Of a DNA stretch of 64,000 bases, positions 25,434-61,481 are shown piece by piece. The notes below the pieces were generated by a model. The model worked only from the letters and a program-made list of their open reading frames with translations, was not told the origin of the DNA and did not search any database. A program made the position numbers and the translations under genes. The stretch is from a virus: IMG/VR virus record IMGVR_UViG_3300005002_000001. One strand, 5' to 3'. Positions within the stretch are counted from its first letter, which is position 1. Every line of letters starts with the position of its first letter.

Positions 25434-25679
25434 ATGGGATACCATACCCGAGAATTCGATAAGGGCGTCTACGGAGAAGTCAGCAAAATCCAGGAGGAGT
25501 ACGAAGAGTTCCTGGACGCTGTCAAGCAGAACGCCAAGGTTTTGGAACTGTGCGAGCTAGCCGATCTTTACGGCGCCATCGCTGGATACGTCGAGCAGAA
25601 TTTTCCAGGACTCAACATGGATGACATCAAACAGATGTCGGACATGACTCGCTCGGCCTTCGAGGAAGGCAAAAGATGA
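25434..25679 (+). CDS. small MazG-like nucleotide pyrophosphohydrolase domain protein (tentative)
   Basis: 81 aa all-helical; EEYEEF / ELADLYGAIAGYVEQ acidic motifs; GGAGATGG RBS. Confidence 0.35.
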   Translation: MGYHTREFDKGVYGEVSKIQEEYEEFLDAVKQNAKVLELCELADLYGAIAGYVEQNFPGLNMDDIKQMSDMTRSAFEEGKR

Positions 25680-33629: not shown

Positions 33630-33793
33630 CTAAGGTAGGAGCCCGACAAGTGATCGATGCTCTGGCGCTCAGAGTCTTCGAAATCGAAGAGATCGAAACA
33701 CGGCTTTCGATCGAAAAGCAGCAGCTAAGGGAGCGGATCCACGAGCTCGAGTGGTTCGAAGACAGTGACGTGGTGGAGTTCAATGGCGAATGA
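33626..33793 (+). CDS. small coiled-coil protein (55 aa)
   Basis: hand translation MTKVGARQVIDALALRVFEIEEIETRLSIEKQQLRERIHELEW...; ATGA at both ends. Confidence 0.4.
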   Translation: MTKVGARQVIDALALRVFEIEEIETRLSIEKQQLRERIHELEWFEDSDVVEFNGE

Positions 33794-34728: not shown

Positions 34729-34735
34729 GGGAACT

Positions 34736-35503
34736 ATGGACCTCTCTGACAGAATGAAGCAGTACGAGGGAACCTACCGAGGTTACCTGAAGATCGAAAA
34801 CGAGCATGACGTAGTCGTCATTCGTGTCGACGGTCGGGCATTTCACACCTACACTCGAGGGGCTAAAGAGCCGTTCGACGAGATGCTGCAATCTTCGATG
34901 AACGAGGTAGCTCGCGAACTGTGCGAGAACATTCAGGGAGCGCAGCTGGCCTATGTCCAATCGGACGAGGTGTCCGTCATCGTCTCTGCGGGCAACGGAG
35001 CCAACATCTGGTTCGATGGAAACATCCAAAAGATGTGCTCCATCTCGGCAGCGATCGCTTCGACCCGCATGACTTTGGAGTCTCCAAGAGTCTTCGGCAA
35101 GATGAGAGTCGCTCAGTTCGATTCTCGAGTCTTCGTCCTGCCCAAGGAAGAAGTCATCAACTACCTCATCTGGAGGCAATCGGACGCCACTCGAAACTCT
35201 GTTCAAATGCTAGCTCGATCCCTCTTTTCCCACAAGCAGTTGCTGGGAAAGTCGTGCGACGTCATGAAGCAGATGGTGAGAGAAGCCGGGAGACCTTGGG
35301 AGAACGAAGCCATCGGCTCGACCCGGGGTCGCTGCATCATCAAGCAATCCTTTCAAGAGAACGTCGAATACGTCGACAAGCGTACCAAGCAAATCAAAAA
35401 CGCCGTCGCCGAACGAACTCGCTGGATCCCCATCTGGGATATCCCGTGCTTCGTGCAAGACAGGACTTTCGTCGCGCAGCAGCTCAAAAAGGAACAGCAA
35501 TGA
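34736..35503 (+). CDS. thg1: Thg1-like tRNA 3'-5' nucleotidyltransferase (tRNA-His guanylyltransferase family)
   Basis: VVIRVDGRAFHTYTRGAKEPFDEML...AYVQSDEVSVIV aligns with the Thg1 core RLDGRNFHRF...AYGQSDEYSFVF. Confidence 0.75.
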   Translation: MDLSDRMKQYEGTYRGYLKIENEHDVVVIRVDGRAFHTYTRGAKEPFDEMLQSSMNEVARELCENIQGAQLAYVQSDEVSVIVSAGNGANIWFDGNIQKMCSISAAIASTRMTLESPRVFGKMRVAQFDSRVFVLPKEEVINYLIWRQSDATRNSVQMLARSLFSHKQLLGKSCDVMKQMVREAGRPWENEAIGSTRGRCIIKQSFQENVEYVDKRTKQIKNAVAERTRWIPIWDIPCFVQDRTFVAQQLKKEQQ

Positions 35504-39322: not shown

Positions 39323-39636
39323 TGCATCTCAATTTCCTTTCCATCGATCGCCGCACCGCCTGGGATATCTTTTCTCTCAATCCACCCGATGGTTATGAGA
39401 TCATCGATCGGGAAGAGGGTTGGGAAGAACGCAAAGGCATCAAGATCGATTATCGCAAGCTCATTTTCCGTGTCGACGGTCGAGTTTGGCTCCTAACGGG
39501 AGCCGCCTGGGACGCCGATCACATCAATCGCATGTTTTCCTTTTTCCTTTACGCCGAAGCGAGATGGTCCGATGACGAATCGGAACCCGTCTCTTGCCCC
39601 GAGGTCCAGAATGACTCAGACGTCCTCCGAAAATAA
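39322..39636 (+). CDS. hypothetical protein
   Basis: track ORF; TAATG overlap. Confidence 0.5.
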   Translation: MHLNFLSIDRRTAWDIFSLNPPDGYEIIDREEGWEERKGIKIDYRKLIFRVDGRVWLLTGAAWDADHINRMFSFFLYAEARWSDDESEPVSCPEVQNDSDVLRK

Positions 39637-40777
39637 CTTGCAATCGTTCATCGATGCGAGAGCCATCAAACCCATCGAATTCGAAACGGTCGACGACGGC
39701 TGCGCCGATCGATTCTTGACGAGCCTGCGACCGGTCGAAAGGAAGGTCGTCGAGGCAGCGCTCGACGCTGGAGGCTTCGTGGCAGGCGGTTGCCCTCGGT
39801 ATGTGACCGAGACGATCGATCACATGGGCGGTTACGACGAGATCGATGCCAATGCGTACCGTCAATTCGGTGATTGCGATCTCTTCTTCCCCAATGAGGA
39901 GTCGTATCGAGTCGCCCATCAGGACCTGCTGAGTCGTCGTGGGAGGGTCCAGCTGTCTCTAAAGGCGGACGCTCAGAATCGGGAAGAATCCATCACGACC
40001 AACGAACGTGGCATCTTTGCAATCAATTTGCAAGCGAACGAGATCGATTTGAAGGGAAAGACCTTGCCCTTCCAGCTCATCAAGTGCGCTTTCGGCGACC
40101 TGCAATCGACGTTGGCACGGTTTGATATCCTCAATTCGATGATTGGATTCTTTCGGGAAAACGGCAAGATGAGGACGTTGAGGGCTCGAGGATGGTTGGA
40201 AAACGAACGCAGCAATACGCTCAACGTTCTGGTCTGGGACTCTCCTCTCAGCTTTTATCGCATCCAGAAGTACATCCAAAAGTACGGATACGAGCGCCTC
40301 GCTCACATGGGAATCTCGCATGATCGTCTCATGAAAGACATGGCGAAGACGATGGAGGCTCTGCCTTTCGATCCCGAACCGGCACGCAGGCGACCGATGG
40401 CCTGGCAAAATGTGCGTTCTTCGGGAGAGAAGATCATCTTCACTCAGCAAAATTACGCTGTGCACATCATCAATACGCTGGCCGCAGTGGGGCACAACTT
40501 CCCAGAGGAAGTGGTCGTCTTCATGCTTTCTCTTTGCATGGCGACGGGGGTCGTCAATGACAAGGGAGCCAGCGATTTGATGATCAAAACCAGCGAGATG
40601 CGGCGGGTCTGGGACCCTAAGGTGATGAAGGCGAGGGTCGAGTCGTGGAAAGAAAGCCAGAGGAAAATGCTGGCCGAGAAGGCGGACAGGCAAGCTCGGA
40701 TCGCAGCGGGGGAAGACGTCTATGGCCTTGGCCTGAGACACACGATCCCGATCCCTGGATTCAAGGGTCGCCCCTAG
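39611..40777 (+). CDS. hypothetical protein (388 aa)
   Basis: ATG 39611 inside track ORF 39572-40777, overlapping upstream stop. Confidence 0.5.
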   Translation: MTQTSSENNLQSFIDARAIKPIEFETVDDGCADRFLTSLRPVERKVVEAALDAGGFVAGGCPRYVTETIDHMGGYDEIDANAYRQFGDCDLFFPNEESYRVAHQDLLSRRGRVQLSLKADAQNREESITTNERGIFAINLQANEIDLKGKTLPFQLIKCAFGDLQSTLARFDILNSMIGFFRENGKMRTLRARGWLENERSNTLNVLVWDSPLSFYRIQKYIQKYGYERLAHMGISHDRLMKDMAKTMEALPFDPEPARRRPMAWQNVRSSGEKIIFTQQNYAVHIINTLAAVGHNFPEEVVVFMLSLCMATGVVNDKGASDLMIKTSEMRRVWDPKVMKARVESWKESQRKMLAEKADRQARIAAGEDVYGLGLRHTIPIPGFKGRP

Positions 40778-41869: not shown

Positions 41870-41913
41870 TCGACGGATCACGGAGCCATTATTATAGGAA
41901 GTAGGTGCGTCAT
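41865..41913 (+). promoter_or_regulatory. TGTAATC promoter upstream of second metzincin
   Basis: aaactgtaatcgacggatcacggagccattattataggaagtaggtgcgtcatATG. Confidence 0.4.
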
Positions 41914-42738
41914 ATGGCTTCAAAATTTTTCGGTTCCGTCCTTCGTACTCTTTCGAAGGCGAGTTTGCTTCTCCTCTTTCCGGTAGCCCTCGTTAGTACA
42001 TGCAACGGTTGCCATCCGACAAAAACGGCAGAGTCGCTCGGAAAGGCGCAGCAGGCAGCCCAGGTCGAACCGATCATCAAAGGTCGAGTACTCATTGATC
42101 CCGAGTTCAGCGGACCGGAACGAGAGTTGATCCTGAAGGGGATTCGTATGTGGACGAATCCCCTTTCTGACGTTTTGAAGATGGAGGTCTCGGATAATCC
42201 GGGACGAGAAGCCTTTGAGAACGACATGCAGCAGCGAATGATTTTGGCTCAGGAACGGGCAGCATCCGGCTTGCCCGAACCCGAAGAGGACGAGGAGGAT
42301 ACGTGGGTCGATCCCCATAGCAAGTGGAACTCCTTCGATCCCCGGGCTCCTTTCTGGAGCATGTCCGAAGGTTGCAGCAGCGCTGTTCTCATCCTTCGAT
42401 TTACCAGTGACAGTCCTGTCGTCAAAGCCGTCGAAAAGGCAGTCTCAGGCAACGGTCACGGCGTGCTCTACGGTCATACCAACAACAGCTGCCATAGAAA
42501 AGCCATCATGCTGGTCGCCGATCGTCTCAAGACGGCCGACGAGTTTACCGAGGTCTTCGCCCACGAATTCGGACACGTCCTGGGACTCAGGCACGATTTC
42601 GAGAGCGACGTCAGCATCATGCATCCCGAGGACAAGTCAACGCGCTGCGTCACTCGTCGAGATGTCAGTTCTTTCTGCGCGCGTTGGAACTGTCCCAAGC
42701 ACCGCCCCTATATGTCGGAATCACGATCCTGCGGTTGA
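41914..42738 (+). CDS. secreted zinc metalloprotease, metzincin type
   Basis: signal peptide; HEFGHVLGLRH (HExxHxxGxxH) followed by SIMHP Met-turn; track ORF 41905 trimmed to ATG. Confidence 0.65.
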   Translation: MASKFFGSVLRTLSKASLLLLFPVALVSTCNGCHPTKTAESLGKAQQAAQVEPIIKGRVLIDPEFSGPERELILKGIRMWTNPLSDVLKMEVSDNPGREAFENDMQQRMILAQERAASGLPEPEEDEEDTWVDPHSKWNSFDPRAPFWSMSEGCSSAVLILRFTSDSPVVKAVEKAVSGNGHGVLYGHTNNSCHRKAIMLVADRLKTADEFTEVFAHEFGHVLGLRHDFESDVSIMHPEDKSTRCVTRRDVSSFCARWNCPKHRPYMSESRSCG

Positions 42739-42773: not shown

Positions 42774-44027
42774 ATGGGACTGAAGCAGACTTTCAAACTC
42801 GCCGTTCAGGAATATCTCGAGACCCATTCCCTCGCCGATCTGGAGAGGGAATTCGGCGTCTCGGCGCGCCTCTCGTCGAGCGGCACCAAACTGTCTCTCA
42901 ACTACGATCAGGTGGCTTCGAAGCCGGGAACGATCGTCAACCAGTGCCGCGGTCTCATCATCAGGCCGCAGACTCCTCGAGTCTTGAGCGATGATCCGGA
43001 TTACGCTTCTAAGATCTTTGGCAAGTCCAAGGTCGTGGCGTATCCCTTTAATCGTTTCTACAACTATGGTGATCACAGCGTCGAAGTGGCTGTCGATCTC
43101 AATGACGTCGAACTCCGAGTCGAGGAAAAGATCGACGGCACCCTCATCATCGTTTACCTCGATGACGTCACCAAAGAATGGTGTGTCGCGACGCGCTCGG
43201 TGGCTGAGGCCGATGTTCCTATCTCGGCGGGCGCCGTCACTCACGGCGATCTGACTTTTCGAAAGCTCTTCGATCGAGCCGTCAAGGCGACGACGGGCGT
43301 CAGCTTCAAGCAGCTGTCGGAAATGCTCGATTCGAACTTCACCTGGATGTTCGAGCTCGTCTCTAACGTCAACAAGGTCGTCGTCTCGTACGACGAGGGT
43401 ATCGTCCTTCTGGGTTGTCGTTCGATCTGGACGGGCAAGGAACAGGTCGATCCGTCCCAGTATTTCGGCATCACCGTGCCGTCGATCGCTGATATCATTC
43501 CGCGTCCCAAGGTGCACTCGTTGTCTTCTATCGAGGATATCGTCAAGTTCGTCAACGAACGCAAAGGCACGGAAGCCGAAGGCGTCGTCCTGCGCGATTC
43601 CAAATTCAATCGCGTCAAGATCAAGAATCCAGAATACGTTCTGGCTTCGAAGTCACGCGATATGCTACTGTCGTCTCGACGAAACATGATCCACTACATC
43701 CTCGCCGAGAAGATCGACGATGTCATGCCTCTTCTTGACAAAGAGACGGCGAGCGCCGTCGAAAAGGCTCGAATCGATCTGATGCACATCTTCGATTCGA
43801 TGGATCGTAACTACGATATCGCTTACAACTGTTCCGATCAGGGACGAGATCGTAAGGCCTTCGCGGGGCAGGTGATGATGCTCAAATACAATAGCAAGTG
43901 CTTTTTCGATCGGCTGATCGGGAAGTGTACTTCGGCGAAAGACTTTTACATGACGCTCGCCAAGTCCGATAAGATCAGCACGAGCAATCTCGATCACCTG
44001 GACAAGCTCATCAAGGATCTTCCTTGA
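42774..44027 (+). CDS. ATP-dependent polynucleotide (RNA) ligase, covalent nucleotidyltransferase superfamily
   Basis: motif I EEKIDGTLIIVY (KxDG), motif IV/V EAEGVVLRDSKFNRVKIKNPEY; size and architecture similar to Rnl2-type RNA ligases. Confidence 0.6.
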   Translation: MGLKQTFKLAVQEYLETHSLADLEREFGVSARLSSSGTKLSLNYDQVASKPGTIVNQCRGLIIRPQTPRVLSDDPDYASKIFGKSKVVAYPFNRFYNYGDHSVEVAVDLNDVELRVEEKIDGTLIIVYLDDVTKEWCVATRSVAEADVPISAGAVTHGDLTFRKLFDRAVKATTGVSFKQLSEMLDSNFTWMFELVSNVNKVVVSYDEGIVLLGCRSIWTGKEQVDPSQYFGITVPSIADIIPRPKVHSLSSIEDIVKFVNERKGTEAEGVVLRDSKFNRVKIKNPEYVLASKSRDMLLSSRRNMIHYILAEKIDDVMPLLDKETASAVEKARIDLMHIFDSMDRNYDIAYNCSDQGRDRKAFAGQVMMLKYNSKCFFDRLIGKCTSAKDFYMTLAKSDKISTSNLDHLDKLIKDLP

Positions 44028-44446
44028 GGGCCGAAAAGCTCTTGGCGCAGGCCGTAGCCAAACTGCGGGCCGAACACGAGGAGCTCCTGAAAACGGAGCT
44101 CACGGCTTTTCACTGCGCGATTCTCGTGTCGGGCGGAGCGATCCTGTCCGTCGGTTTCAACAAGCCGAAGGTCAATTCCTTCGTCGCGGTCTACGCTCAT
44201 CATCCTGATGTGCAGACTATCCATGCCGAGATCGACGCAATCCTTCAAGTTCGCCGCAAGACCGATCTGACGGGTTGCAAGATCTACGTTGCCAAACTGG
44301 GACGCAACGGAGAAGTGGGAAACTCCTGCCCGTGCGCCATGTGTCACGAGGCTCTTCACAACTACGGTATCAAGCGAGCGTATTACACCGTCAACGAGAC
44401 TACTTATGCTGTAGAGCGCCTTAGCGGCGAGGAGTGGCCCAAATGA
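44024..44446 (+). CDS. CDA-fold zinc-dependent deaminase (TadA/dCMP-deaminase-like)
   Basis: HAEIDAI ... SCPCAMCHEAL (H-A-E and PCxxC zinc ligands); TTGA overlap start. Confidence 0.6.
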   Translation: MRAEKLLAQAVAKLRAEHEELLKTELTAFHCAILVSGGAILSVGFNKPKVNSFVAVYAHHPDVQTIHAEIDAILQVRRKTDLTGCKIYVAKLGRNGEVGNSCPCAMCHEALHNYGIKRAYYTVNETTYAVERLSGEEWPK

Positions 44447-44607
44447 TCGTGATCGATTTGGTCAATGGTGATGACGTCATTACCATCCCACCAGAAGATT
44501 CTCCGGAAGAGAAGGCGCGCAAGGAAAAGATGCGCCAGGAAGCCCTCAGAAAAATCTTCGAACGAGCGCCTAGGCCTCAACTAGAGATCGTCGAAATTAA
44601 GCGGTAG
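44443..44607 (+). CDS. hypothetical small protein (54 aa)
   Basis: ATGA start; MIVIDLVNGDDVITIPPEDSPEEKARKEKMRQEALRKIFERAPRPQLEIVEIKR. Confidence 0.35.
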   Translation: MIVIDLVNGDDVITIPPEDSPEEKARKEKMRQEALRKIFERAPRPQLEIVEIKR

Positions 44608-44941
44608 AGGGCAATCTAGCCTCGATGACGATGGCCACCAGCGTATTCCCGCTGGGAGGAGCCGCGGTCGGATCGGTCGTCACCCAGTGCTCGTATTGGC
44701 TGGTCGCGACTCGATAGCCACGCATGCGATATTTCTGCGCCACGGCCGCGACAGCTACGCTCGTCGCGGGGAGCGTTTTGATGTCGAAACCGCTAAAATC
44801 CGCCAGCGTATTGCCTTCTCGGATATCGAGATTGCTGACAGGCAAAATGTTTCGACCATCAAAGGAAGCAGGAGTCGGTCCCACTAAGTCGAAAGCACCC
44901 AGTCCGACGAAATTTAAATCAGCGAATTCGTTACCCGCCAT
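44597..44941 (-). CDS. hypothetical protein (last gene of minus-strand structural operon)
   Basis: track ORF. Confidence 0.5.
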   Translation of the reverse strand: MAGNEFADLNFVGLGAFDLVGPTPASFDGRNILPVSNLDIREGNTLADFSGFDIKTLPATSVAVAAVAQKYRMRGYRVATSQYEHWVTTDPTAAPPSGNTLVAIVIEARLPSTA

Positions 44942-44958
44942 GGCTTTAAATATCGAAG
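44942..44958 (-). promoter_or_regulatory. ATATTTAAAGCC motif immediately 5' of ATG (minus strand), overlapping upstream stop codon
   Basis: 17-mer ATATTTAAAGCCATGGC identical to the one at ~22534. Confidence 0.35.
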
Positions 44959-46124
44959 CTCATCGTTCGACCGGTACGAATTCCGTTTTGAAATCCAGGC
45001 TGGCTGCCTGACCAAGGGATCAGAATCTTTCCGGCCGTAGCAGTCGACGTACCAAACGCAGCCGAGGACGAAGTAGGAGTGACGGTATGAGTCGCCATAC
45101 CGATTCCGTAATTGAGATGATTGATCGTGCCCAGGATTCCGTTATCGATGCCCTCTGATAGCACTACCCACATCGGAAATCGCTCATATGATCCGCTGTT
45201 GACGAAGTTGTTATAGCCGATCGTGCTGTTGACCAGCACTTGAGCCACCCCGTAAAGCCTCGACCCGCTTGTCAGCGTAGGATGAGCTATAGCTCCATCA
45301 ATCGTATCGACGCTGGGGCTAGTAGCTAAGCCATTAGTAGTCGTCCATGTATTTCCCCAAGGACTGTTGCCGGCGCCGCCGTTGCTGATCATGACGTACG
45401 GACTCTCAGGATAAGGCGTGATGCCGGGCCGAGGAGCGTATGATCCGAAGTGGATCACTCGATAGTTGCCGTCGGCTAGTGAATCTGTCAATACTGTCAG
45501 ACTATCTTCGCTGGCGATAACATGATATCTCAATGGTACGATAGTAGTCGAGTTATCATTTACGATCGACATGTAATTTCGACTGCCCGAATACGTGCCA
45601 CCGTGGCTAAGTGATCTAGGGAAAAATGATCCCTTACCATCGGGCGTCAGTTTCCAAACCGGATCTCCGATAGATGCTGAAGTGAGGCTGTACGTACCGT
45701 TCCACGGGCCGTCAGCCGAACCGGTGTTCGAGCCCGAGGGATGACTAGCAAAAGAGAAACCGAGATTTCCCCTCGCAGTCGACGTATTTGTCGTCGCCCA
45801 GCCGGCCGGACGCATAGGTCCATTGGAGACGACCGACCCGGTGGCAACAAACACCATGCAGTCGAACTTGCCCATCGAAGCAGAGTGGAATCGAAAGATA
45901 GCAAAAGCTCGATGCCCGGCGCCGATCGTTCCCTGATCCCAGAACGTAAATCCTGTACCGGCGACTCCGTAATTGGCAGCGATCATTTCGATGCCAAGAT
46001 CCGAGCAGCTCGAAAGATGCTGCACGGTATTGACGAACATTTCGCCGACCGTTCGACTGTCCGTTCCCGTGGAATCGGATGTCGGGTTCATATAGCAATC
46101 TACTCGTCCTCTATATTTGGGCAT
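44946..46124 (-). CDS. virion/tail-fibre-associated protein, paralogue of 46133-47389
   Basis: shared N-terminus MPKYRGRVDC and many conserved blocks (FHSASMGKFD, HPSGSNTGSADGPWNG, TPYPESPY). Confidence 0.55.
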   Translation of the reverse strand: MPKYRGRVDCYMNPTSDSTGTDSRTVGEMFVNTVQHLSSCSDLGIEMIAANYGVAGTGFTFWDQGTIGAGHRAFAIFRFHSASMGKFDCMVFVATGSVVSNGPMRPAGWATTNTSTARGNLGFSFASHPSGSNTGSADGPWNGTYSLTSASIGDPVWKLTPDGKGSFFPRSLSHGGTYSGSRNYMSIVNDNSTTIVPLRYHVIASEDSLTVLTDSLADGNYRVIHFGSYAPRPGITPYPESPYVMISNGGAGNSPWGNTWTTTNGLATSPSVDTIDGAIAHPTLTSGSRLYGVAQVLVNSTIGYNNFVNSGSYERFPMWVVLSEGIDNGILGTINHLNYGIGMATHTVTPTSSSAAFGTSTATAGKILIPWSGSQPGFQNGIRTGRTMSFDI

Positions 46125-46132
46125 CTAAAACC

Positions 46133-47389
46133 TCAGACATCGAAATTCATGGTTCGGCCTGTTCTGTGTTGCCAATTGGTGCCCGGGGCCGAACCGGACC
46201 ACGGCACAATAATCTTGACGCTCTGAGCTCCTGCCAATCCCATAGCGGCCGAGCCTGATGCGTAACTGACGGAATTCGGATTCATCCCGTACCCCCATGC
46301 TACGTGTTTGGCCAGGCCCAGAATGCCATTGTTAGTTCCTTCGGAGATAGCTACCCACATGGGTATTTTTTCAAAAGATCCGCTATTGACGAAATTCGTG
46401 TATCCAGCGATCGAAGCCAATCCACCGATGGTAACATGCCCAAAGATCAAAGCTCCCGATAACAAGCTGGGATGCGCAACAGCACCGTCGGGAGTTCCTG
46501 TTCCTCCGGCGACGCCGGCCGTCTGACCGATGTTTGCCTGTGTATAAAAAGCACCGACAGGGTTGACAGTCGATACAGTGTTTGTAAACATGTAATACGG
46601 GCTTTCGGGATAAGGAGTCGATCCCGAGCGCGGGAAATACGGCCCGAAATGTGTCACCTTATACGAGGCATCGTTAGCGTGATCGACCAAGAATGTGAAG
46701 GAATCCTCGCTCAACAAAATGTGATAACGAGCAGGCAAAAATGTAGCTTCGGAGCTTACTTGAGAGCCGTCTTCATTAAGAGTCGCTAGATAATTGCGGC
46801 TAGCCGAGTATGTGCCGGCGATGCCGTTGGCGCGTGGAAAAAACGCGCCTTTGCTGTCAGCGGTCGTCTTCCACAACGGATTGTTAGCAGACAGTCCCGA
46901 GTTTCCGATGCCCAGGGTGGCGGACGTCAAGCTATAGCTTCCATTCCACGGACCGTCGGCTGAGCCGGTGTTCGAACCCGAGGGATGGCATGCAAAAGAC
47001 ACGCCGAAATCTCCATAGAGATAATTCGAACCGACAAATGAGGTTGTCTGCTGGGACATGACAACTCCGCCGAAAGTCTGACCGCTGCTAGCTGAGACTT
47101 GATAGAGTAACATGTCGAATTTACCCATCGAAGCTGAGTGAAATCGAGCGACTATCCAAGTTCGGGGCCCAGTAGGAGTGCCTTGATCCCAGAATTGGAA
47201 TCCCGTCCCACCGGCGCCGTAATTAGCAGCAATGATTTCGATGCCAAGTTCGGGTCCGTACTGCTGTATGTGTTGCACAGTGTTGATGAACATTTCACTG
47301 TGTGCACGAGGACCTCTCCAGTTGCCGGCATTGGGATCTACCTGCAATGGAAACGAAAAGCAATCTACTCGTCCTCTATATTTGGGCAT
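46133..47389 (-). CDS. virion/tail-fibre-associated protein, paralogue of 44946-46124
   Basis: see 44946. Confidence 0.55.
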   Translation of the reverse strand: MPKYRGRVDCFSFPLQVDPNAGNWRGPRAHSEMFINTVQHIQQYGPELGIEIIAANYGAGGTGFQFWDQGTPTGPRTWIVARFHSASMGKFDMLLYQVSASSGQTFGGVVMSQQTTSFVGSNYLYGDFGVSFACHPSGSNTGSADGPWNGSYSLTSATLGIGNSGLSANNPLWKTTADSKGAFFPRANGIAGTYSASRNYLATLNEDGSQVSSEATFLPARYHILLSEDSFTFLVDHANDASYKVTHFGPYFPRSGSTPYPESPYYMFTNTVSTVNPVGAFYTQANIGQTAGVAGGTGTPDGAVAHPSLLSGALIFGHVTIGGLASIAGYTNFVNSGSFEKIPMWVAISEGTNNGILGLAKHVAWGYGMNPNSVSYASGSAAMGLAGAQSVKIIVPWSGSAPGTNWQHRTGRTMNFDV

Positions 47390-47401
47390 GCGTTACCTTA
47401 A

Positions 47402-50386
47402 TTAGGTCGTTTCTACTTCAAGCATCGCGCTCTTGACTATAGCGGCTCTATTAGAACCGGTGGGTGTACACCAGAATCTAGCTTCGATGATGCCGGATCC
47501 TGTCACCGAGCTCAGAGCGGCGGTGATCTCTCTAGAGAAATAAGTAAATGTCGTCGATGATCCCGTGACGACGGAACCTGAGATGGGCTGCGGAATTCCG
47601 TTGATGATTCCGTTGTAATCATACAGATCGGCATACGCTACTGTCGTACCCGAGACAGGAGCCAAGATCGTTCTGAAATAGAACTTCTTAGTACCAGCAG
47701 GCAATTGCGTCTGATCGAGATATGCCATTCCTAGAGATTCATTCGACCCCGATCCCTGATCTGTCGTGGCGATACCATTCATCAGATTGAATTTGTTGGA
47801 CTGAGTGACGGGTGTGCCCGAGAATTGGACTTCGAGCCAGGCACTCTTGCAGATAGCAGCGAGATCCGATCCGGTCGGCGTGCACCATAGACGAGCTTCA
47901 AAAATTCCGGAGCCCGTGACGCTCGTCAGGACGCTCGTCAGGTCCTTAGAAAAATAAGTGAATGAGGTGGAGGAACCGGTAACGATCGAGCCCTGAATTA
48001 TCTGAGGGACCCCTGAGATGATTCCGTTGTAGTCGTAGAGCTCTAGGTAAGCGACGGTCGATCCTGTCGATGGCGCCAATATCGATTTGAAATAGTAGCT
48101 TTTGGTACCGATCGGTAGCGTCGATTGATCGAAGTACGTCATACCGATAGATTCGACGGACGACGATGGCTGGGTCGTTGTGACGGTCTCGTGAGTAATT
48201 CCGTATCTCATGATACGGTTTGAACTGCCGTTGGTCGAGATGACGACGCTGCTGTTGGGACCGTTATCGACGATGGAGATGCCCGTGCCGGCCGTCAACA
48301 CTCTTTCGTTGGGCAGAGAAGACGTAGTCCCTAGAACGACGTAGGAGGCAGAAACATCGGCTCCTCCGCCCGATCCTCCGAACGATCCGGATCCGATCGT
48401 TATGGGATCGGCGATTCGAAACACAGTGACGCGACCGGTCACCATATTTTCTCCGTCTATTGGATTCGAAACGTTCCACGTGCCGGCTGTGCCGGTGTTT
48501 CTGACATATTGCAGTCTGAAGCTGCTGCCCGATATCAGAGAAATGATGCCATCTAGGCGGGCGTTGCCTGCAGCGTCTGACGCGTTGTCATATGACGTCT
48601 GCTGGATTATCGAGCCGTCCGAACCGCTGAGCCTAAAGGCGAGATATCCGGTCGACATGGCATAGTTGAAGTCCGAATGCCAGGCGTAATATCCGTCTTT
48701 GCTAACGAACCACGTCGATGCGCTTCTAGAAATACCGTTGCGAATTCGATCTTGGAATCCCGATGCGATGTTTGTGAAATCGGTCCAGGTGGTATTGTTA
48801 CCCCAGTTCAAAGACTGAGTCGTAAAACCGTCGTATATGTCAGCTGATTGAGATGATGCTCCCGTCAGACCGATAGTGACGCTGCCGCCCGGACCGCCGT
48901 CCGTGATCGCGATGCCCGTGCCAGCCGCTAGCACTCTTTCATTAGGCAGAGATGCCGTCAACGCCATGACGACGTAAGACGCGTCTCCATCTCCCGTTCC
49001 GGAGCCGCCGCCCGAACCTGAGAACGTTCCGGAAGCCGTCGAACTGATCGTGATCTGTCCGTTGGAAGCCGAAGTGATGATGATATTCGATCCGGCGACA
49101 AGATACGACTGGCCGTTCGTCAACCTCGTTAGAGATCCCGAAAGACCGGCCGTGTGATTCGTCACGCCCGAGAATGTTGAACCCGAAATAGTGGCGACGA
49201 TTCGATCGTCGATGAAGATGTTATAAGTGCCGCCGGCACCGCCATCGGTGAATTTGATGCCATTGATGGGAGCAAAGACACGTTCTGCCGTCAGCGTACC
49301 GTCAGCTGTCAATACGAGATAGGTCGCATTGATCGGTGCATCGATAGAAGAGGATGCAGCCAGGCCTGTAATCGTCACCTGTCCGTTGGAGGCCGACGTG
49401 ACCGTGATGCCGGTACCTCCGACGATGTAGGATCGACCGTCCGTCAAGCGTGTCAACGATCCTGAGAGACCCGCGGTATGAAGCGTCGCTCCAGTGAAAG
49501 TGGATCCCGAAATAGTGGCAACGACGCTGTTATTGATGGCCCACGTGACAGGACCGTTCGCGCCGCCATCGGTGACTCGAATTCCCAGGCCACCGCTGAC
49601 GAAACGCTCGTTAGTCAGCGATGCCGTCAAAGCCATGACGACGTATGACGCGCCTGGATCGGCATTCGCGCCCGAGCCTGTTGTTTGCGTGATCGACGTT
49701 ACTCGTCCTTGAGAATCGACCGTGATTTCGCTGGGATATGTGTAAGTTCCAGGAGTTCCCGTATTAGCCAGTCCTAGATTGGCGTTGGGAGACGTCGTAT
49801 CGAGCGTCAGATGTCCCGGGGTGACGGACAACACTCGAGAGTTAGAAAGACCGATTTCAGTTCCCCAAACGACATAACGAGAATTATTCGGAGCTCCGCC
49901 GCCGGCCCCTGAGGCACCGAGAGCCAGCGAGACCCAGCCTTGTCCCGTCCAAACGAACATGATTGCGCCGAAAGCGACAACGATGTTCTGAGCCGTCTGG
50001 CCGTCGATAGTCGATCCATCGGTCGTCTGAATTCGAATGGGCGTTGCGTTGCTAGCAGTTCCTCGATAATCTTTGATGATATGGGTCTGACCAGCATTAG
50101 CGGGCGGCGTGGGCAAATTGACCGTGACTTGCACTCCCGAATCATTCAGGATGAAGTACGCGATCTTGTCGTTGGTTACTCTGACATTAGCCGCATCAGC
50201 CGGACTACTGATCTGAAGAACGAACGCGTTGATATCTAGAGCGCCTCTTAGAATGAGCGCGCCTGGACTGCCTTCAAATCCGACCTGCAGATCTTTGGGC
50301 GTGACGACAGTGACAACGTCACCCTTACCGTCACGAATGACGATCTGCGGAGTCCTCTTAGCTTCTGCTACGTTGAAACTAGGCAT
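47402..50386 (-). CDS. repeat-rich fibre protein (tail-fibre-like), 994 aa
   Basis: internal ~90-aa tandem repeats (VATISGSTF(T/S)G(A/V)T(L/N)HTAGLSGSLTRLT(D/N)G...), three ASYVV(M/L)...NERV blocks, duplicated ~130-aa C-terminal domain (…YFDQSTLPIGTKSYYF… / …YLDQTQLPAGTKKFYF…). Confidence 0.6.
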   Translation of the reverse strand: MPSFNVAEAKRTPQIVIRDGKGDVVTVVTPKDLQVGFEGSPGALILRGALDINAFVLQISSPADAANVRVTNDKIAYFILNDSGVQVTVNLPTPPANAGQTHIIKDYRGTASNATPIRIQTTDGSTIDGQTAQNIVVAFGAIMFVWTGQGWVSLALGASGAGGGAPNNSRYVVWGTEIGLSNSRVLSVTPGHLTLDTTSPNANLGLANTGTPGTYTYPSEITVDSQGRVTSITQTTGSGANADPGASYVVMALTASLTNERFVSGGLGIRVTDGGANGPVTWAINNSVVATISGSTFTGATLHTAGLSGSLTRLTDGRSYIVGGTGITVTSASNGQVTITGLAASSSIDAPINATYLVLTADGTLTAERVFAPINGIKFTDGGAGGTYNIFIDDRIVATISGSTFSGVTNHTAGLSGSLTRLTNGQSYLVAGSNIIITSASNGQITISSTASGTFSGSGGGSGTGDGDASYVVMALTASLPNERVLAAGTGIAITDGGPGGSVTIGLTGASSQSADIYDGFTTQSLNWGNNTTWTDFTNIASGFQDRIRNGISRSASTWFVSKDGYYAWHSDFNYAMSTGYLAFRLSGSDGSIIQQTSYDNASDAAGNARLDGIISLISGSSFRLQYVRNTGTAGTWNVSNPIDGENMVTGRVTVFRIADPITIGSGSFGGSGGGADVSASYVVLGTTSSLPNERVLTAGTGISIVDNGPNSSVVISTNGSSNRIMRYGITHETVTTTQPSSSVESIGMTYFDQSTLPIGTKSYYFKSILAPSTGSTVAYLELYDYNGIISGVPQIIQGSIVTGSSTSFTYFSKDLTSVLTSVTGSGIFEARLWCTPTGSDLAAICKSAWLEVQFSGTPVTQSNKFNLMNGIATTDQGSGSNESLGMAYLDQTQLPAGTKKFYFRTILAPVSGTTVAYADLYDYNGIINGIPQPISGSVVTGSSTTFTYFSREITAALSSVTGSGIIEARFWCTPTGSNRAAIVKSAMLEVETT

Positions 50387-50400
50387 TTAGTCGAAGCCCG

Positions 50401-53310
50401 TTACCGGGTAAATCTCATCGAATAAATACTCGGAACGTACAGAGGCTCTTCCCTATTGCGAACAGTTCCGTCAAAGTACGGCAAAGAAGAAGTTGCCTCG
50501 AAGCTTAGGTTTGAAGAAAAAGTGTTTTCGGGTTTGATTGTAGATCCGTTGGGTCCGATGAATTTGACATTGACGGGAGCCGCCAGAACAGTGACTCCAT
50601 TGTGAAATTTGCCGTCCGGGCGCTGTTCTAGCATATCTCTGAACTGACCGTAACGATCTCGTCGGAAGACGGCCTTTGTCTGAGTTTCAAACCCATTCAA
50701 CATTCCGTATTTCCAGCCTCGAGCTATGGCTCCTCGGCTAGTTCTGTTGCTATAGCCGTAGGGCGGAGCGCCTGCATCCGAAGTTTTTGTCCTGTAAAAC
50801 GGTCGACACGTCGACCCATAGAACCCGCCAGACTGCTCTTCGCTAAAAATGTTTCGTCGGCAATTATTCCAATCTCCAGATCCGTAGAGGATTTTGATGA
50901 TGTCTTCGTACCGCAATCCAGAAAAGTTACCATTGATCGAATCGGCATGGATTCGATAGTTCTGAGCAATTCCTAGCTCAGTGTTGCCGGGTGGATACAT
51001 CTCGATAGCGATTTTCGTATCGACTGGAGAAAGCGTACTCAATCGAGTCGATCCTCCGAAGAATCCGCTAGTGTTGTATCGAGATGTCACCTTGTCTACA
51101 AGTTTAGTACGAATCAGATTAGAGTATTTGGGTTCGAATGGGAATGAACGAGTCCAATCAGTGACCGTGAAACCGATGGTGACAAAGTCAATAAAATCTA
51201 GACTGATCAACATGTCTCCGGATCCGACCACGGCGTTGTAAGGAGCACCCGAACCTTCTTTTCGAAAGATCTCATCGAATCGAGGAATCATGCTATCATA
51301 GAATTGCTCGTTATCGCTAGTGATCTGCGAGTTTCTGAAGAACTGCACGCGTTCCCAGTACTTGACTTCTTGCTCGGACAAGAAGATAGAAGGCATCGTA
51401 TTTTGAGGATCAAAATTCGTCGCGTCGGCAAGAAGCTGTCGCGACCACTGATATTCTAGACGATTTAGAAACGGAGTCGTCGTGCCCGACATGAACTGCG
51501 CTCTGGTCGATCCCGTAAACTCTTGCTGAGACCCGATGTCCCATTCATCGACTATTACATTGTGAATCGATTCATGAACTGCGTTGGTATCGAGTCGAGA
51601 ATTGAGAGTGTCATGATATTCGACTCCCTCTCTTACCATGCTACCGTACATCGTGATCTTGACAGATCCCGTATCCATCCAGATATCATGAGCCTGATTG
51701 AGGTTCATGCTTCCGTTGAAATTGAATGGAACTGTTCCGTTGACGGCGCTCTGTGAGACGCACGCTCGATACTTCGAAACAGAAAGAACGAGCTTATCAG
51801 AAGGAAACAGGATGTACGGAGATATCGCTGTCTGCTCGTAGTTGTAGAGATAGACATCGCAGTACGAACCAATTCCCTCAGGAAAGAAACGAGCAAGGGC
51901 CGAAATGCCATCACCATCGGGAACGGAAAATTCCTTGCCAAAGACGCTACGGCCAGCGGCGACTCCTCTCATCGATCGTCCGAAAGGGTTGACAGAGATA
52001 GCAAAAGAATTTCGTAACTTGTCACCTCGATTTTGGCCGTAGAGACCGTACGATCCAGGAACGCAGAAGAATCCAAGAGAGGTGACTCCGTTAGAAATTC
52101 TAGGCTCAAGTTGAAATTTCAGAGTGCCAGTGAATGTCTGATCTGACCCGGAAGATACGACGATGGCCGGTTGACCGTATGACTTGAATCCCGAAGCGAA
52201 GCGCTCGTTATAGAGAGGGCTGATGTCCTGTCCGATGAAATTGTCGTTTTCTGGGATGATGGTGGCCGATAGGATCAGATCTCTGTTGTTTCGATTGATC
52301 TGATTGATCAGACCAAAAGTGACGGCCGGACCGCCAGTGTCAAACGGATCGCCACGGTAACCGTTGATAGCGTTTAGTCTGACAAATCTCGTGTAATCTC
52401 TGAGCCATCCAGGGCCCGCCTTGATGGGCACTTCCATGATGATCTTCTCGACCATGAACGGTTGAGAGATGTAACGATTCATCTGGATGTACTGGGAAGA
52501 TGTCGCTTCGAAATTCGAATCGATCAAAGCTGACTGCGTATTGACGAGACTCAGTAGCCTTCCCATGTTGGAAAAAGCCGTGGGAATATTGTCCTGTAGA
52601 TACGAACGAGGCAGGGTCTGGTCTTCGGTCGGAGTATTCAGAATGTGACCCAACTGCAGCACATCCTGTTTAGAACTCGATAGAATGTTCGAACCCAAAT
52701 GGTTGAAAAGTCTGGTCTCCCAGAAATTCATGTTGGCCCAGGGACGGTGCCTGATGCCTGCGGCAATCTCTTCGAATCGACCTCGTTCGTTGTTCAGATA
52801 ATAGATGCTCGCAGACGAGGGCTGCATCTGCACCGCCGTCGCGACTGGAATGTCGATAGAAATTTTGGTCTTGCTATCCAGCTTCGACAAAAATCCGAGG
52901 CCGAATTCGGATAGAGAGGATCCCGTCTTGAAAAATTCTGTCGTCTTGAGATCTTGATCGTAAAGCTTGCTTTCGACGTATGGCTTGATGGCCTCAAACT
53001 GTCGAGTCGGAGTCAGCCACTGTTCGACGTCTCGAATAGCGTTGCCTGAAACGAAGATGGACGATGTCAGATTGCCGATCAGATACTTCGATCCGGACGG
53101 GATGGATGTCGGTAGAGAGACGAATTGCGGTCCCTCGGACGCGGTGCCGACCAGCTGTGTATAGACAAATGTGTCAGTGTCATCGAAGAAGATCGAGCCA
53201 GCACCCGTGCGATTCGAATCTCCCGTGCGCGCGACGGTCGGATATCGGCTGATCTGGTTATCCAGAATCCGAACTTCGAGTCGTGGGGATCTTTTCTTCT
53301 TAGAGGGCAT
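50401..53310 (-). CDS. large virion structural protein, paralogue of 53314-56193
   Basis: conserved N-terminus (...RILDNQISRYPTVARTGDSNRTGAGSIFFDDT) and C-terminus (YSSNLSFEATSSLPYFDG(T/Q)VRNREEPL). Confidence 0.55.
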   Translation of the reverse strand: MPSKKKRSPRLEVRILDNQISRYPTVARTGDSNRTGAGSIFFDDTDTFVYTQLVGTASEGPQFVSLPTSIPSGSKYLIGNLTSSIFVSGNAIRDVEQWLTPTRQFEAIKPYVESKLYDQDLKTTEFFKTGSSLSEFGLGFLSKLDSKTKISIDIPVATAVQMQPSSASIYYLNNERGRFEEIAAGIRHRPWANMNFWETRLFNHLGSNILSSSKQDVLQLGHILNTPTEDQTLPRSYLQDNIPTAFSNMGRLLSLVNTQSALIDSNFEATSSQYIQMNRYISQPFMVEKIIMEVPIKAGPGWLRDYTRFVRLNAINGYRGDPFDTGGPAVTFGLINQINRNNRDLILSATIIPENDNFIGQDISPLYNERFASGFKSYGQPAIVVSSGSDQTFTGTLKFQLEPRISNGVTSLGFFCVPGSYGLYGQNRGDKLRNSFAISVNPFGRSMRGVAAGRSVFGKEFSVPDGDGISALARFFPEGIGSYCDVYLYNYEQTAISPYILFPSDKLVLSVSKYRACVSQSAVNGTVPFNFNGSMNLNQAHDIWMDTGSVKITMYGSMVREGVEYHDTLNSRLDTNAVHESIHNVIVDEWDIGSQQEFTGSTRAQFMSGTTTPFLNRLEYQWSRQLLADATNFDPQNTMPSIFLSEQEVKYWERVQFFRNSQITSDNEQFYDSMIPRFDEIFRKEGSGAPYNAVVGSGDMLISLDFIDFVTIGFTVTDWTRSFPFEPKYSNLIRTKLVDKVTSRYNTSGFFGGSTRLSTLSPVDTKIAIEMYPPGNTELGIAQNYRIHADSINGNFSGLRYEDIIKILYGSGDWNNCRRNIFSEEQSGGFYGSTCRPFYRTKTSDAGAPPYGYSNRTSRGAIARGWKYGMLNGFETQTKAVFRRDRYGQFRDMLEQRPDGKFHNGVTVLAAPVNVKFIGPNGSTIKPENTFSSNLSFEATSSLPYFDGTVRNREEPLYVPSIYSMRFTR

Positions 53311-53313
53311 CTG

Positions 53314-56193: not shown

Positions 56194-56238
56194 CTCTGAC
56201 GGATATAATCTACACTAAGTACGCCATCATGAAAGCTC

Positions 56239-57977: not shown

Positions 57978-57980
57978 CGA

Positions 57981-61460: not shown

Positions 61461-61481
61461 TGCTAGTCCTTAAAATACAAC

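What the first reader, a model, noticed from the sequence alone, without database searches (positions are those of the whole stretch)
42774..44446. RNA ligase and CDA-fold deaminase gene pair
The KxDG (KIDGT) nucleotidyltransferase-ligase gene is followed, with a TTGA overlap, by an HAE/PCxxC deaminase that resembles tRNA adenosine or cytidine deaminases. Tight coupling suggests one functional unit acting on (t)RNA: ligation plus base editing or modification restoration. This would complement the Thg1/ARH pair 8 kb upstream.
Basis: partly seen in the sequence, partly recalled or inferred. Interest (0 to 1): 0.6.

Follow-up and report, generated by a model that had tools for sequence, protein, structure and literature searches.

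The report
Phage RNA ligase beside mini-deaminase
An uncultivated phage carries a T4-type RNA repair ligase gene followed directly by a small zinc deaminase from a virus-only, unstudied family; related phages keep either gene without the other, so the two look like neighbours, not a proven two-part machine.

Summary
ORF 42774..44027 (417 aa) is an Rnl1-type RNA ligase, supported by Pfam, PHROG, T4 Rnl1 sequence matches and the best fold match. ORF 44024..44446 (140 aa) is a CDA-fold zinc deaminase with HAE and PCxxC motifs. Its TTG start overlaps the ligase stop (TTGA). A conserved 54-aa ORF follows through an ATGA overlap.

The ligase is an RNA ligase, not a DNA ligase. The deaminase belongs to a large, basic, virus-specific family of 100-165 aa proteins. 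Its best profile matches are dCMP deaminases, ahead of TadA, yet it lacks the C-terminal elements of both and has its own insertion before PCxxC.

The ligase-then-deaminase order persists in one uncultivated phage lineage down to about 32% identity, always abutting the same convergent block of large ORFs. Five lineage members have the ligase and block without the deaminase. One syntenic relative has the deaminase without the ligase. More widely, 2 of 49 ligase loci carry the deaminase and 4 of 75 deaminase loci carry the ligase.

Most likely these are two co-expressed but independent auxiliary enzymes: tRNA repair and pyrimidine-nucleotide deamination. A tRNA- or nucleic-acid-directed deaminase is not excluded. 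Interest is moderate to low.

The parts
42774..44027 (+). Rnl1-type ATP-dependent RNA ligase gene (417 aa)
   Evidence: Pfam PF09511 63.8 bits against cutoff 28.3. phrog_562 E 4e-39. T4 Rnl1 chains 2c5u, 9do4 and 5tt6 at E 6e-9 to 4e-8. AF2 model pLDDT 89.8, with T4 Rnl1 as the best Foldseek hit at E 1.4e-15.
43128..43142 (+). Ligase motif I, KIDGT; K119 is the predicted adenylylation lysine
   Evidence: Motif scan. K119, D121, G122 and T123 are invariant in the 25-sequence alignment A1.
43578..43625 (+). Ligase motifs IV (E269-G-V-V) and V (K282-I-K284)
   Evidence: Motif scan. E269, G270, K282 and K284 are invariant in A1.
44013..44027 (+). Junction: AAGGA Shine-Dalgarno-like site (44013-44017), then TTG start (44024-44026) overlapping the TGA stop (44025-44027)
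   Evidence: Read from the sequence. The same tight junction, from a 17-nt overlap to a 2-nt gap, occurs in L001, L002, L062, L083, L086 and L093.
44024..44446 (+). Mini CDA-fold zinc deaminase gene (140 aa), from a virus-specific family
   Evidence: Pfam PF00383 46.8 bits against cutoff 25. 2,294 cluster representatives at E<=1e-3. AF2 model pLDDT 84.9. Profile against PDB ranks dCMP deaminases first.
44222..44230 (+). HAE: zinc ligand H67 and catalytic E69
   Evidence: H67 is invariant and A68 and E69 are at least 90% conserved across 149 family members.
44330..44344 (+). PCAMC: zinc ligands C104 and C107. It is preceded by the family-specific insertion at residues ~91-102
   Evidence: C107 is invariant and P103 and C104 are at least 90% conserved. 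The insertion relative to T4 Cd and TadA is visible.
44443..44607 (+). Conserved 54-aa ORF. Its ATG overlaps the deaminase TGA (ATGA at 44443-44446), with GAGGAG 8 nt upstream
   Evidence: Read from the sequence. Homologues at 96% (L062), 76% (L001), 46% (L002) and 68% (L028) identity. In L028 it directly follows Rnl1 with no deaminase between.
41905..42738 (+). Upstream neighbour: zincin-type metallopeptidase (HEFGHVLGLRHD), a recurrent neighbour of Rnl1 in large phages
   Evidence: Pfam Reprolysin_5 and Peptidase_M10. Homologues lie near Rnl1 in 8 of 24 ligase lineages.
44597..61460 (-). Convergent block of large ORFs of unknown function (probably virion or fibre-like). The pair abuts this block in every lineage member
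   Evidence: Homologues at 27-49% identity in L024-L028, L083, L086 and L093. The only Pfam hit is Laminin_G_3 in 57981..61460. No PHROG hit.
33790..35503 (+). Context: ADP-ribosylglycohydrolase (33790..34728) and Thg1-like 3'-5' polymerase (34736..35503)
   Evidence: Pfam PF03747 101.5 bits and PF04446 87.2 bits. phrog_4717 E 1e-71.

Best explanation
The region is a three-gene chain: Rnl1, a mini-deaminase and a 54-aa ORF. The genes are linked by 4-nt stop/start overlaps and lie at the end of the rightward accessory-gene block of an uncultivated large phage. They are therefore very likely co-transcribed and translationally coupled (inferred from the sequence).

The ligase is an Rnl1-family enzyme. 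By analogy with T4 Rnl1, K119 would be adenylylated by ATP, AMP would pass to a 5'-phosphate RNA end, and the 3'-OH would attack to reseal the break. The expected substrates are tRNA anticodon loops cut by host anticodon nucleases, after end-healing by a Pnkp that this window does not encode. The classification is shown; the mechanism is inferred.

The deaminase is a zinc-dependent hydrolytic deaminase, with H67, C104 and C107 as zinc ligands and E69 as proton shuttle. It belongs to a virus-specific family of 100-165 aa proteins. Its most likely substrate is a free pyrimidine nucleotide, for example dCMP converted to dUMP to feed thymidylate synthesis. That is inferred from its nearest characterised relatives and from the replication, RNR and ThyX neighbourhoods of other family members.

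The two enzymes are co-inherited within one phage lineage, but each is dispensable without the other. The slot after Rnl1 is a variable accessory position, not half of an obligate ligation-plus-editing machine.
For: Ligase class.

Deaminase class:
- A family profile hits the dCMP deaminases 2hvv (7e-14), 1vq2, 4p9c and 2w4l ahead of TadA 1wwr (2e-10).
- phrog_174 'dCMP deaminase' scores 1.5e-12, and ComEB is the top NCBIfam hit.
- Across 36 deaminase lineages the recurrent neighbours are RecA/UvsX-like, SbcCD-like, terminase, DnaB, SSB-like, RNR, FEN and a 403-aa ORF read by eye as a family-A polymerase. A ThyX motif lies within 10 kb in 3 lineages.
- Streptomyces phage EGole has ThyX and RNR in the first 50 kb of the genome and a family member at ~110 kb as the one annotated deoxycytidylate deaminase in the 60 kb of the 135.7-kb genome read here.

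Separability:
- L024-L028 keep Rnl1 (35-38% identity) next to the same block with no deaminase. L027 and L028 have no room for one. L024 has a DNA-ligase-like ORF in the slot.
- L060/L061 keep the order Thg1-like, w39572 homologue, w41252 homologue, two zincins, then the deaminase (52% identity), with no Rnl1.
- Only 2 of 49 Rnl1 loci and 4 of 75 deaminase loci carry the partner.

Co-inheritance: paired ligase/deaminase identities fall together: 76/94, 69/84, 61/74, 39/47, 32/38 and 33/31%.
Against: - The adjacency survives to about 32% identity while every upstream gene has been replaced. That is more persistence than a neutral neighbour would usually show.
- Ralstonia phage RsoM2USA carries both a canonical dCMP deaminase (E 6e-30 to 4p9c) and a member of this family, so the family is not simply 'the' phage dCMP deaminase.
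- The family is strongly basic: median pI 9.57, and 143 of 149 members above 8.5.
- In the closer subfamily, 11 of 16 lineages have tRNA or tmRNA genes within 10 kb.
- No ThyX, ThyA, RNR or dUTPase motif was found in the 64-kb window.
Confidence: 0.5

Rival explanations
1. One reading: Rnl1 and the deaminase form one tRNA-directed unit. The ligase reseals cleaved tRNA. The deaminase edits or restores a base (A-to-I or C-to-U) in the same tRNAs, for example to rebuild or alter the anticodon loop so that host anticodon nucleases no longer recognise it.
For: - The genes are immediately adjacent in the same order, with overlapping or nearly touching stop and start codons, in six further contigs spanning 32-76% ligase identity.
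- In the distant lineage members L083 and L093, a 10-16 gene tRNA array lies directly upstream of the pair.
- The window also carries a Thg1-like gene and ARH.
- The family is basic.
- It coexists with a canonical dCMP deaminase in RsoM2USA.
Against: - Each gene occurs without the other in syntenic relatives.
- Linkage is absent outside one lineage.
- The profile matches dCMP deaminases before TadA.
- The protein has no TadA-type C-terminal helix.
- tRNA arrays with an A34 anticodon occur in relatives that lack the deaminase (L025, L027). The arrays next to the pair (L083, L093) show no A34 tRNA.
- The window has no tRNA gene at all.
Confidence: 0.13
2. The deaminase acts on nucleic acid (RNA, tRNA/tmRNA or ssDNA) but independently of the ligase, for example in host takeover or counter-defence. 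Its position next to Rnl1 only reflects a shared 'RNA/translation accessory' neighbourhood.
For: - Family median pI is 9.57.
- Within the closer subfamily, tRNA or tmRNA genes lie 0.25-5 kb from the gene in 11 of 16 lineages, against 9 of 39 control Rnl1 loci (p=0.002, post hoc).
- The EGole copy sits inside a tRNA array 5 kb from a polynucleotide kinase.
- The family is virus-specific: 75 IMG/VR loci against 2 MAG contigs among 185,579 species genomes.
- It is non-redundant with a canonical dCMP deaminase in RsoM2USA.
Against: - Family-wide, the tRNA association is not significant at lineage level (13 of 36 against 9 of 39, p=0.31).
- Many family members sit in replication and nucleotide-metabolism modules with RNR and ThyX.
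- No member carries a recognisable nucleic-acid-binding extension.
Confidence: 0.2
3. The Rnl1 homologue is kept next to the convergent block of large ORFs because, like T4 gp63 (Rnl1), it also helps tail-fibre attachment. On this view the ligase's position reflects virion assembly, and the deaminase is an unrelated insert.
For: - Rnl1 abuts the same block of large ORFs in at least 11 contigs of the lineage: the window's group, L024-L028, L083, L086 and L093.
- phrog_562 is named 'RNA ligase and tail fiber protein attachment catalyst'.
- One block protein has a ConA-like lectin domain typical of fibres and baseplates.
Against: - The block is on the opposite strand, so it is not co-transcribed with the ligase.
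- The block's virion role is itself unproven: no PHROG hit and no cultured relative.
- All ligase catalytic residues are invariant, which argues for a retained enzymatic role.
- In other large phages this ligase family sits with Pnkp and a second RNA ligase, not with structural genes.
Confidence: 0.1

Closest known systems
T4 RNA ligase 1 (RnlA, gp63) and the T4 Pnkp-Rnl1 tRNA repair pathway
   Same: It has the same nucleotidyltransferase motifs: KxDG at K119, EGxx at 269 and KxK at 282-284. The overall architecture matches, with an N-terminal adenylyltransferase domain and an all-helical C-terminal domain. T4 Rnl1 is the best sequence hit and the best fold hit. Related large-phage ligases of this subfamily sit near Pnkp in 10 of 24 lineages.
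   Different: Identity to T4 Rnl1 is only 18-28% by the Foldseek and tblastn alignments. The score is far below the NCBIfam equivalog cutoff (58.7 against 242). The protein is about 40 aa longer. No Pnkp is encoded in this 64-kb window. The neighbours here are a zincin peptidase and a deaminase.
dCMP deaminases (T4 Cd, S. mutans ComEB-type, cyanophage S-TIM5, human DCTD, PBCV-1 bi-DCD)
   Same: It has the HAE and PCxxC zinc site. It shares the 'GIK(K/R)vyY' strand after the zinc helix. These are the best profile-to-PDB matches. Some family members lie near RNR and ThyX.
   Different: A family-specific insertion of about 10 residues lies between strand 3 and PCxxC (YVA(R/K)...G...PC). The C-terminus is truncated, modelled as a beta4-beta5 hairpin with no helix 4. 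The family has its own conserved 'VRxKxDLxG' segment. It is strongly basic. It coexists with a canonical dCMP deaminase in RsoM2USA.
TadA / ADAT2 tRNA adenosine deaminases
   Different: It has no C-terminal RNA-binding helix. Profile E-values are weaker than for dCMP deaminases. No TadA model appears among NCBIfam hits at E<=1. No A34 tRNA gene accompanies the gene here.
Sphingobium phage Lacusarx 'tadA'-rtcB pair in its tRNA region (PMC5648845)
   Same: A CDA-fold deaminase gene lies immediately next to an RNA repair ligase gene, downstream of a tRNA array and a tmRNA.
   Different: The ligase there is RtcB, a different ligase family and chemistry, and the gene order is reversed. The 'tadA' is in fact a canonical dCMP-deaminase-like protein (E 3e-14 to human DCTD), not a member of this mini-deaminase family. 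This case came from a keyword search, so it is an anecdote and says nothing about frequency.

Membership tests
Rnl1 (T4 RnlA-type RNA ligase) | Covalent nucleotidyltransferase motifs I (KxDG), IV (EGxx) and V (KxK) are intact | tested here: met
   KIDGT at 119, EGVV at 269 and KIK at 282. K119, D121, G122, E194, E269, G270, K282 and K284 are invariant in 25 homologues.
Rnl1 (T4 RnlA-type RNA ligase) | Matches the curated family model PF09511 above the gathering score | tested here: met
   63.8 bits against 28.3, covering all 227 profile positions.
Rnl1 (T4 RnlA-type RNA ligase) | Equivalog-level match to T4 RnlA (NCBIfam TIGR02308) | tested here: not met
   58.7 bits against a cutoff of 242.25. 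It is a distant subfamily, not an equivalog.
Rnl1 (T4 RnlA-type RNA ligase) | Two-domain fold closest to Rnl1, not to Rnl2, Rnl3, Rnl5 or DNA ligases | tested here: met
   Foldseek gives T4 Rnl1 at E 1.4e-15 over 423 columns, fungal Trl1 ligase domain at 3e-10, Rnl3 at 2e-8, Rnl5 at 6e-6, and DNA ligases and Rnl2 at 5e-5 or weaker. The model has an all-helical C-terminal domain at residues 286-414.
Rnl1 (T4 RnlA-type RNA ligase) | Works with an end-healing polynucleotide kinase-phosphatase | tested here: inconclusive
   No Pnkp homologue or P-loop plus HAD protein is present in the 64-kb window. The rest of the genome was not seen. Pnkp lies near this ligase subfamily in 10 of 24 lineages elsewhere.
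Rnl1 (T4 RnlA-type RNA ligase) | Seals 3'-OH/5'-phosphate breaks in tRNA anticodon loops | not testable with these tools
   Needs biochemistry.
dCMP deaminase (ComEB / T4 Cd / DCTD) | Zinc and catalytic signature HAE ... PCxxC | tested here: met
   H67-A-E69 and P103-C-A-M-C107. This feature is shared by the whole superfamily.
dCMP deaminase (ComEB / T4 Cd / DCTD) | Match to a curated dCMP-deaminase equivalog model | tested here: not met
   TIGR02571 ComEB scores 25.1 bits against a cutoff of 219.45.
dCMP deaminase (ComEB / T4 Cd / DCTD) | Closest solved relatives by sequence profile are dCMP deaminases | tested here: met
   2hvv 7e-14, 1vq2 1e-13, 4p9c 8e-13 and 2w4l 2e-11, ahead of TadA 1wwr at 2e-10.
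dCMP deaminase (ComEB / T4 Cd / DCTD) | C-terminal helix 4 followed by strand 5, as recalled from published fold classifications of this clade | tested here: not met
   The AF2 model (pLDDT 84.9) shows strand 116-122 followed directly by strand 128-132 and then the end of the protein. The alignment shows the family ending where T4 Cd continues. This result is model-based.
dCMP deaminase (ComEB / T4 Cd / DCTD) | Serves as the genome's dCMP-to-dUMP step alongside a thymidylate synthase | tested here: inconclusive
   No ThyX or ThyA motif in the window. A ThyX motif lies within 10 kb in 3 family lineages. EGole has ThyX. RsoM2USA has a separate canonical dCMP deaminase as well.
TadA / ADAT2 tRNA adenosine deaminase | C-terminal helix that docks the anticodon stem-loop | tested here: not met
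   The protein ends 18 residues after strand 4.
TadA / ADAT2 tRNA adenosine deaminase | Match to curated TadA models, or TadA as the best relative | tested here: not met
   No TadA model appears among NCBIfam hits at E<=1. TadA chains rank below four dCMP deaminases.
TadA / ADAT2 tRNA adenosine deaminase | Deaminates A34 of tRNA | not testable with these tools
   Needs biochemistry. No tRNA genes in the window.
Obligate two-gene system (ligase plus deaminase) | Partners co-occur whenever either is present in related genomes | tested here: not met
   Rnl1 occurs without the deaminase in L024-L028. The deaminase occurs without Rnl1 in L060/L061. Overall, 2 of 49 and 4 of 75 loci carry the partner.

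The most novel reading that the evidence does not exclude
The mini-deaminase is the founding example of a virus-specific family of polynucleotide deaminases. In this lineage it is translationally coupled to Rnl1 as part of a tRNA counter-defence toolkit that also includes a Thg1-like gene, ARH and, in relatives, tRNA arrays. It would edit bases in tRNA or tmRNA, for instance in the anticodon loop, to rebuild repaired tRNAs or make them unrecognisable to host anticodon nucleases.
Probability: 0.12. Interest if true: 0.75.

Novelty: new variant of a known kind. Interest (0 to 1): 0.33.

Why it matters
If the ordinary reading is right, this adds one more Rnl1 and one more nucleotide deaminase to the list of phage auxiliary genes. 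The main benefit is correcting automatic labels, because sources call homologues of the same protein either 'TadA' or 'deoxycytidylate deaminase'.

The more useful by-product is the deaminase family itself. It has about 2,300 cluster representatives. It is almost confined to viruses, very small, strongly basic and structurally distinct at the substrate-facing C-terminus. No experimental work on it was found in the papers searched. Compact deaminases are sought as base-editor parts, and phage tRNA repair and evasion is an active counter-defence topic. A simple substrate screen would settle whether this family is a minimal dCMP deaminase or something new.

Tried and rejected
- **Single-sequence PDB search with the deaminase.** Only noise-level hits were returned, including antibody CH3 domains that share 'HEALHN'. 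Discarded.
- **tRNA-array association as evidence for a tRNA substrate.** It looked striking locus by locus. After collapsing to 36 lineages it was not significant family-wide (p=0.31). It was significant only in a post-hoc subfamily. Kept as a lead only.
- **A34 tRNA genes as possible substrates.** tRNA-Arg(ACG) and tRNA-Leu(AAG) occur in some arrays. They do not track the deaminase (L025 and L027 lack it), and the arrays next to the pair have none.
- **Lacusarx 'tadA-rtcB' as an independent replicate of the pair.** That deaminase is a canonical dCMP-deaminase type and not this family.
- **Pnkp, a second ligase or a metallophosphatase in the window.** None found.
- **Annotating the convergent block.** No PHROG hit, almost no Pfam hit and no INPHARED match.
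- **Promoter and terminator scan around the pair.** Counts did not exceed shuffled controls.
- **Rfam scan of the window.** No hits.
- **The search for related loci with the 149-sequence alignment.** It failed because no stretch was conserved enough. A 23-sequence alignment was used instead.
Full report
**1. What is in the sequence**

ORF A (42774..44027, +, 417 aa) carries KIDGT at residues 119-123. ORF B (44024..44446, +, 140 aa) carries HAE at 67-69 and PCAMC at 103-107. ORF B starts at a TTG whose last two bases belong to ORF A's TGA stop. An AAGGA lies six bases upstream.

An ATG at 44443 overlaps the deaminase TGA (ATGA), is preceded by GAGGAG, and opens a conserved 54-aa ORF ending at 44607. 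The long ORFs on the opposite strand are shadow frames of a sequence rich in third-position GC. ORF B holds the only HAE...PCxxC motif in any frame of the window. The window has no tRNA gene and no Rfam match.

**2. The ligase is an Rnl1-type RNA ligase**

- Pfam RNA_lig_T4_1 scores 63.8 bits against a cutoff of 28.3 and covers the whole model.
- phrog_562 scores E 4e-39.
- The only meaningful PDB sequence hits are three T4 Rnl1 entries.
- In 25 homologues, the motif I lysine and the motif III, IV and V residues are invariant.
- An AlphaFold model (pLDDT 89.8) matches T4 Rnl1 best (E 1.4e-15). Next come the fungal Trl1 ligase domain, archaeal Rnl3 and Naegleria Rnl5. DNA ligases and Rnl2 are far behind.

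It is not an equivalog of T4 RnlA: TIGR02308 scores 58.7 bits against a cutoff of 242. It belongs to a subfamily of about 410 aa that is common on very large viral contigs. Across 24 lineages of that subfamily, the recurrent neighbours are:

- a Pnkp-like kinase-phosphatase (10 lineages);
- a zincin peptidase like the window's 41905..42738 (8 lineages);
- a metallophosphatase (8 lineages);
- a second small RNA ligase (7 lineages).

The window has the zincin but no Pnkp.

**3. The deaminase belongs to a distinct, virus-specific mini-deaminase family**

An exhaustive HMMER search found 2,294 cluster representatives at E<=1e-3, nearly all 100-165 aa. The family shares these features:

- G-x-N, HAE and PCxxC motifs;
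- a conserved 'VRxKxDLxG' segment;
- an insertion of about 10 residues between strand 3 and PCxxC;
- a short 'GIKRAYYT' C-terminus.

A family profile hits four dCMP deaminases first (7e-14 to 2e-11) and TadA next (2e-10 and weaker). PHROG and NCBIfam also rank dCMP deaminase or ComEB first, but far below equivalog cutoffs.

The family is strongly basic, with median pI 9.57. It is almost absent from cellular genomes. A motif scan found 75 loci in IMG/VR but only two MAG contigs among 185,579 species genomes.

**4. Is the pair a unit?**

Evidence for linkage. The order ligase-then-deaminase, with overlapping or nearly touching stop and start codons, recurs on six other contigs:

| Contig | Ligase identity | Deaminase identity |
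|---|---|---|
| L009/L062 | 76% | 94% |
| L001 | 69% | 84% |
| L002 | 61% | 74% |
| L031/L083 | 39% | 47% |
| L086 | 32% | 38% |
| L093 | 33% | 31% |

On every one the pair abuts a convergent block of large ORFs homologous to window 47402..61460. Upstream genes are completely different in the three distant contigs. The two identities fall together, as expected for vertical co-inheritance.

Evidence against linkage:

- Five contigs of the same lineage (L024-L028) have Rnl1 at 35-38% identity next to the same block but no deaminase. L027 has only a 274-bp gap. In L028 the ligase is followed directly by the homologue of the 54-aa ORF. L024 has a DNA-ligase-like ORF in the slot.
- In the other direction, L060/L061 keep the window's gene order of Thg1-like, 39572 homologue, 41252 homologue, zincin and then the deaminase (52% identity), with no Rnl1.
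- Outside the lineage the genes are unlinked. Only 2 of 49 Rnl1 loci have the deaminase, and only 4 of 75 deaminase loci have Rnl1. All of these belong to this lineage.

I conclude that the adjacency is a lineage-level synteny. It marks a variable accessory slot, not an obligate two-part system.

**5. What does the deaminase act on?**

Contexts across 36 family lineages point two ways.

Many members, mostly the more distant ones, sit in replication and nucleotide-metabolism modules. Their neighbours include RecA/UvsX-like, DnaB, SSB-like, a 403-aa ORF that I read by eye as a family-A polymerase, FEN and RNR genes. A ThyX motif lies within 10 kb in three lineages. Streptomyces phage EGole has ThyX and RNR in its first 50 kb. 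In the 60 kb of that 135.7-kb genome that I read, a family member is the only annotated deoxycytidylate deaminase. This fits a minimal dCMP deaminase.

Against that reading:

- In the closer subfamily the gene often lies 0.25-5 kb from tRNA or tmRNA arrays: 11 of 16 lineages against 9 of 39 control loci (p=0.002). The split was made post hoc, and family-wide the association is not significant (p=0.31).
- The EGole copy sits inside a tRNA array, 5 kb from a polynucleotide kinase.
- Ralstonia phage RsoM2USA encodes both a canonical dCMP deaminase (E 6e-30 to the S-TIM5 enzyme) and a member of this family. The two are 25% identical.

I put about 50% on a free-nucleotide substrate. I put about 30-35% on a polynucleotide substrate, split between action with the ligase and action independent of it. 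The remainder goes to other small molecules.

**6. A published look-alike**

The Lacusarx genome paper (PMC5648845) notes a 'tadA' next to rtcB in its tRNA region, and the record confirms the adjacency. That 'tadA' is really a canonical dCMP-deaminase-type protein (E 3e-14 to human DCTD) and is not a member of this family. It shows that deaminase genes next to RNA ligase genes near tRNA arrays have been noticed before. It also shows that automatic TadA labels are unreliable. It was found by keyword, so it says nothing about frequency.

**7. Verdict**

The deaminase is not TadA-like by any test run here. The 'single functional unit' reading is weakened by the separate presence and absence of each gene in relatives.

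The components are known kinds. The deaminase is an undescribed variant within the CDA superfamily, which is the only part worth a bench follow-up. Interest is 0.33.

Noticed in passing
window 15937..18585 (+): An 882-aa ORF matches eukaryotic Major Vault Protein domains (MVP_shoulder 103.7 bits, Vault_3, Band_7). An MVP-like protein on a phage contig is unusual. A separate SPFH/Band-7 gene lies at 31167..32102.
   Followed up: no
window 33790..35503 (+): An ADP-ribosylglycohydrolase gene is followed 7 nt later by a Thg1-like 3'-5' polymerase gene. Thg1-like homologues also lie within 10 kb of Rnl1 in L022 and L030, and upstream of the deaminase in L061.
   Followed up: partly
window 41905..42738 (+); L010, L011, L016, L017, L019, L032, L033, L035, L039, L042: A secreted-looking zincin metallopeptidase (HEFGHxxGxxHD) lies directly upstream of Rnl1. 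Its homologues recur within a few kb of Rnl1 in 8 of 24 ligase lineages. That makes it a more frequent Rnl1 neighbour than the deaminase.
   Followed up: partly
window 44597..63994 (-): A convergent block of about 19 kb holds large ORFs, including three of 959-994 aa, one of 1159 aa and two paralogous ORFs of 392 and 418 aa that both start MPKYRGRVDC. It has no PHROG hit, only a Laminin_G_3 domain in Pfam, and no match in 50,697 deposited phage genomes. It is probably a virion or fibre module of an uncultured lineage.
   Followed up: partly
window 22595..23227, 24886..25404, 25676..26281, 29693..31107 (+): Other accessory genes are present: an AlkB-like 2OG-Fe(II) oxygenase, a fatty-acid-hydroxylase-family protein, a 201-aa fragment-sized class II aminoacyl-tRNA-synthetase core (tRNA-synt_2/2d), a HAD hydrolase and a sugar-nucleotidyltransferase-like protein.
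   Followed up: no
L025, L027, L028, L083, L093 (upstream of Rnl1): Distant members of the window's lineage carry arrays of 10-27 tRNA genes immediately upstream of Rnl1. The window and its close relative L062 have none in the same position. In these two, the array position is occupied by the block that runs from Thg1/ARH to the zincin.
   Followed up: partly
L064, L067, L077, L078, L081, L087, L088, L006: Phage-encoded tmRNA genes with differing tag peptides lie 0.9-3 kb downstream of the mini-deaminase gene in several lineages, often ahead of a tRNA array.
   Followed up: partly
L024 11179..12486 (+): In one lineage member the slot after Rnl1 holds a 435-aa ORF with an ATP-dependent DNA-ligase-like KWDGFR motif in place of the deaminase. 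It was identified by eye only.
   Followed up: no
L136 14935..15459 (Sphingobium phage Lacusarx LAV_00113): The gene annotated and published as tRNA-specific adenosine deaminase 'tadA' matches dCMP deaminases best (human DCTD 3e-14, PBCV-1 bi-DCD 2e-13). It is likely misannotated.
   Followed up: yes
window 39572..40777 (+): A 401-aa ORF is conserved in L009 (81% identity) and in L060/L061 (25-31% identity). It has only a weak phrog_1614 'nucleotidyltransferase' hit (E 4e-4), no Pfam hit and no PDB hit. A tRNA nucleotidyltransferase-like role was considered but could not be shown.
   Followed up: partly
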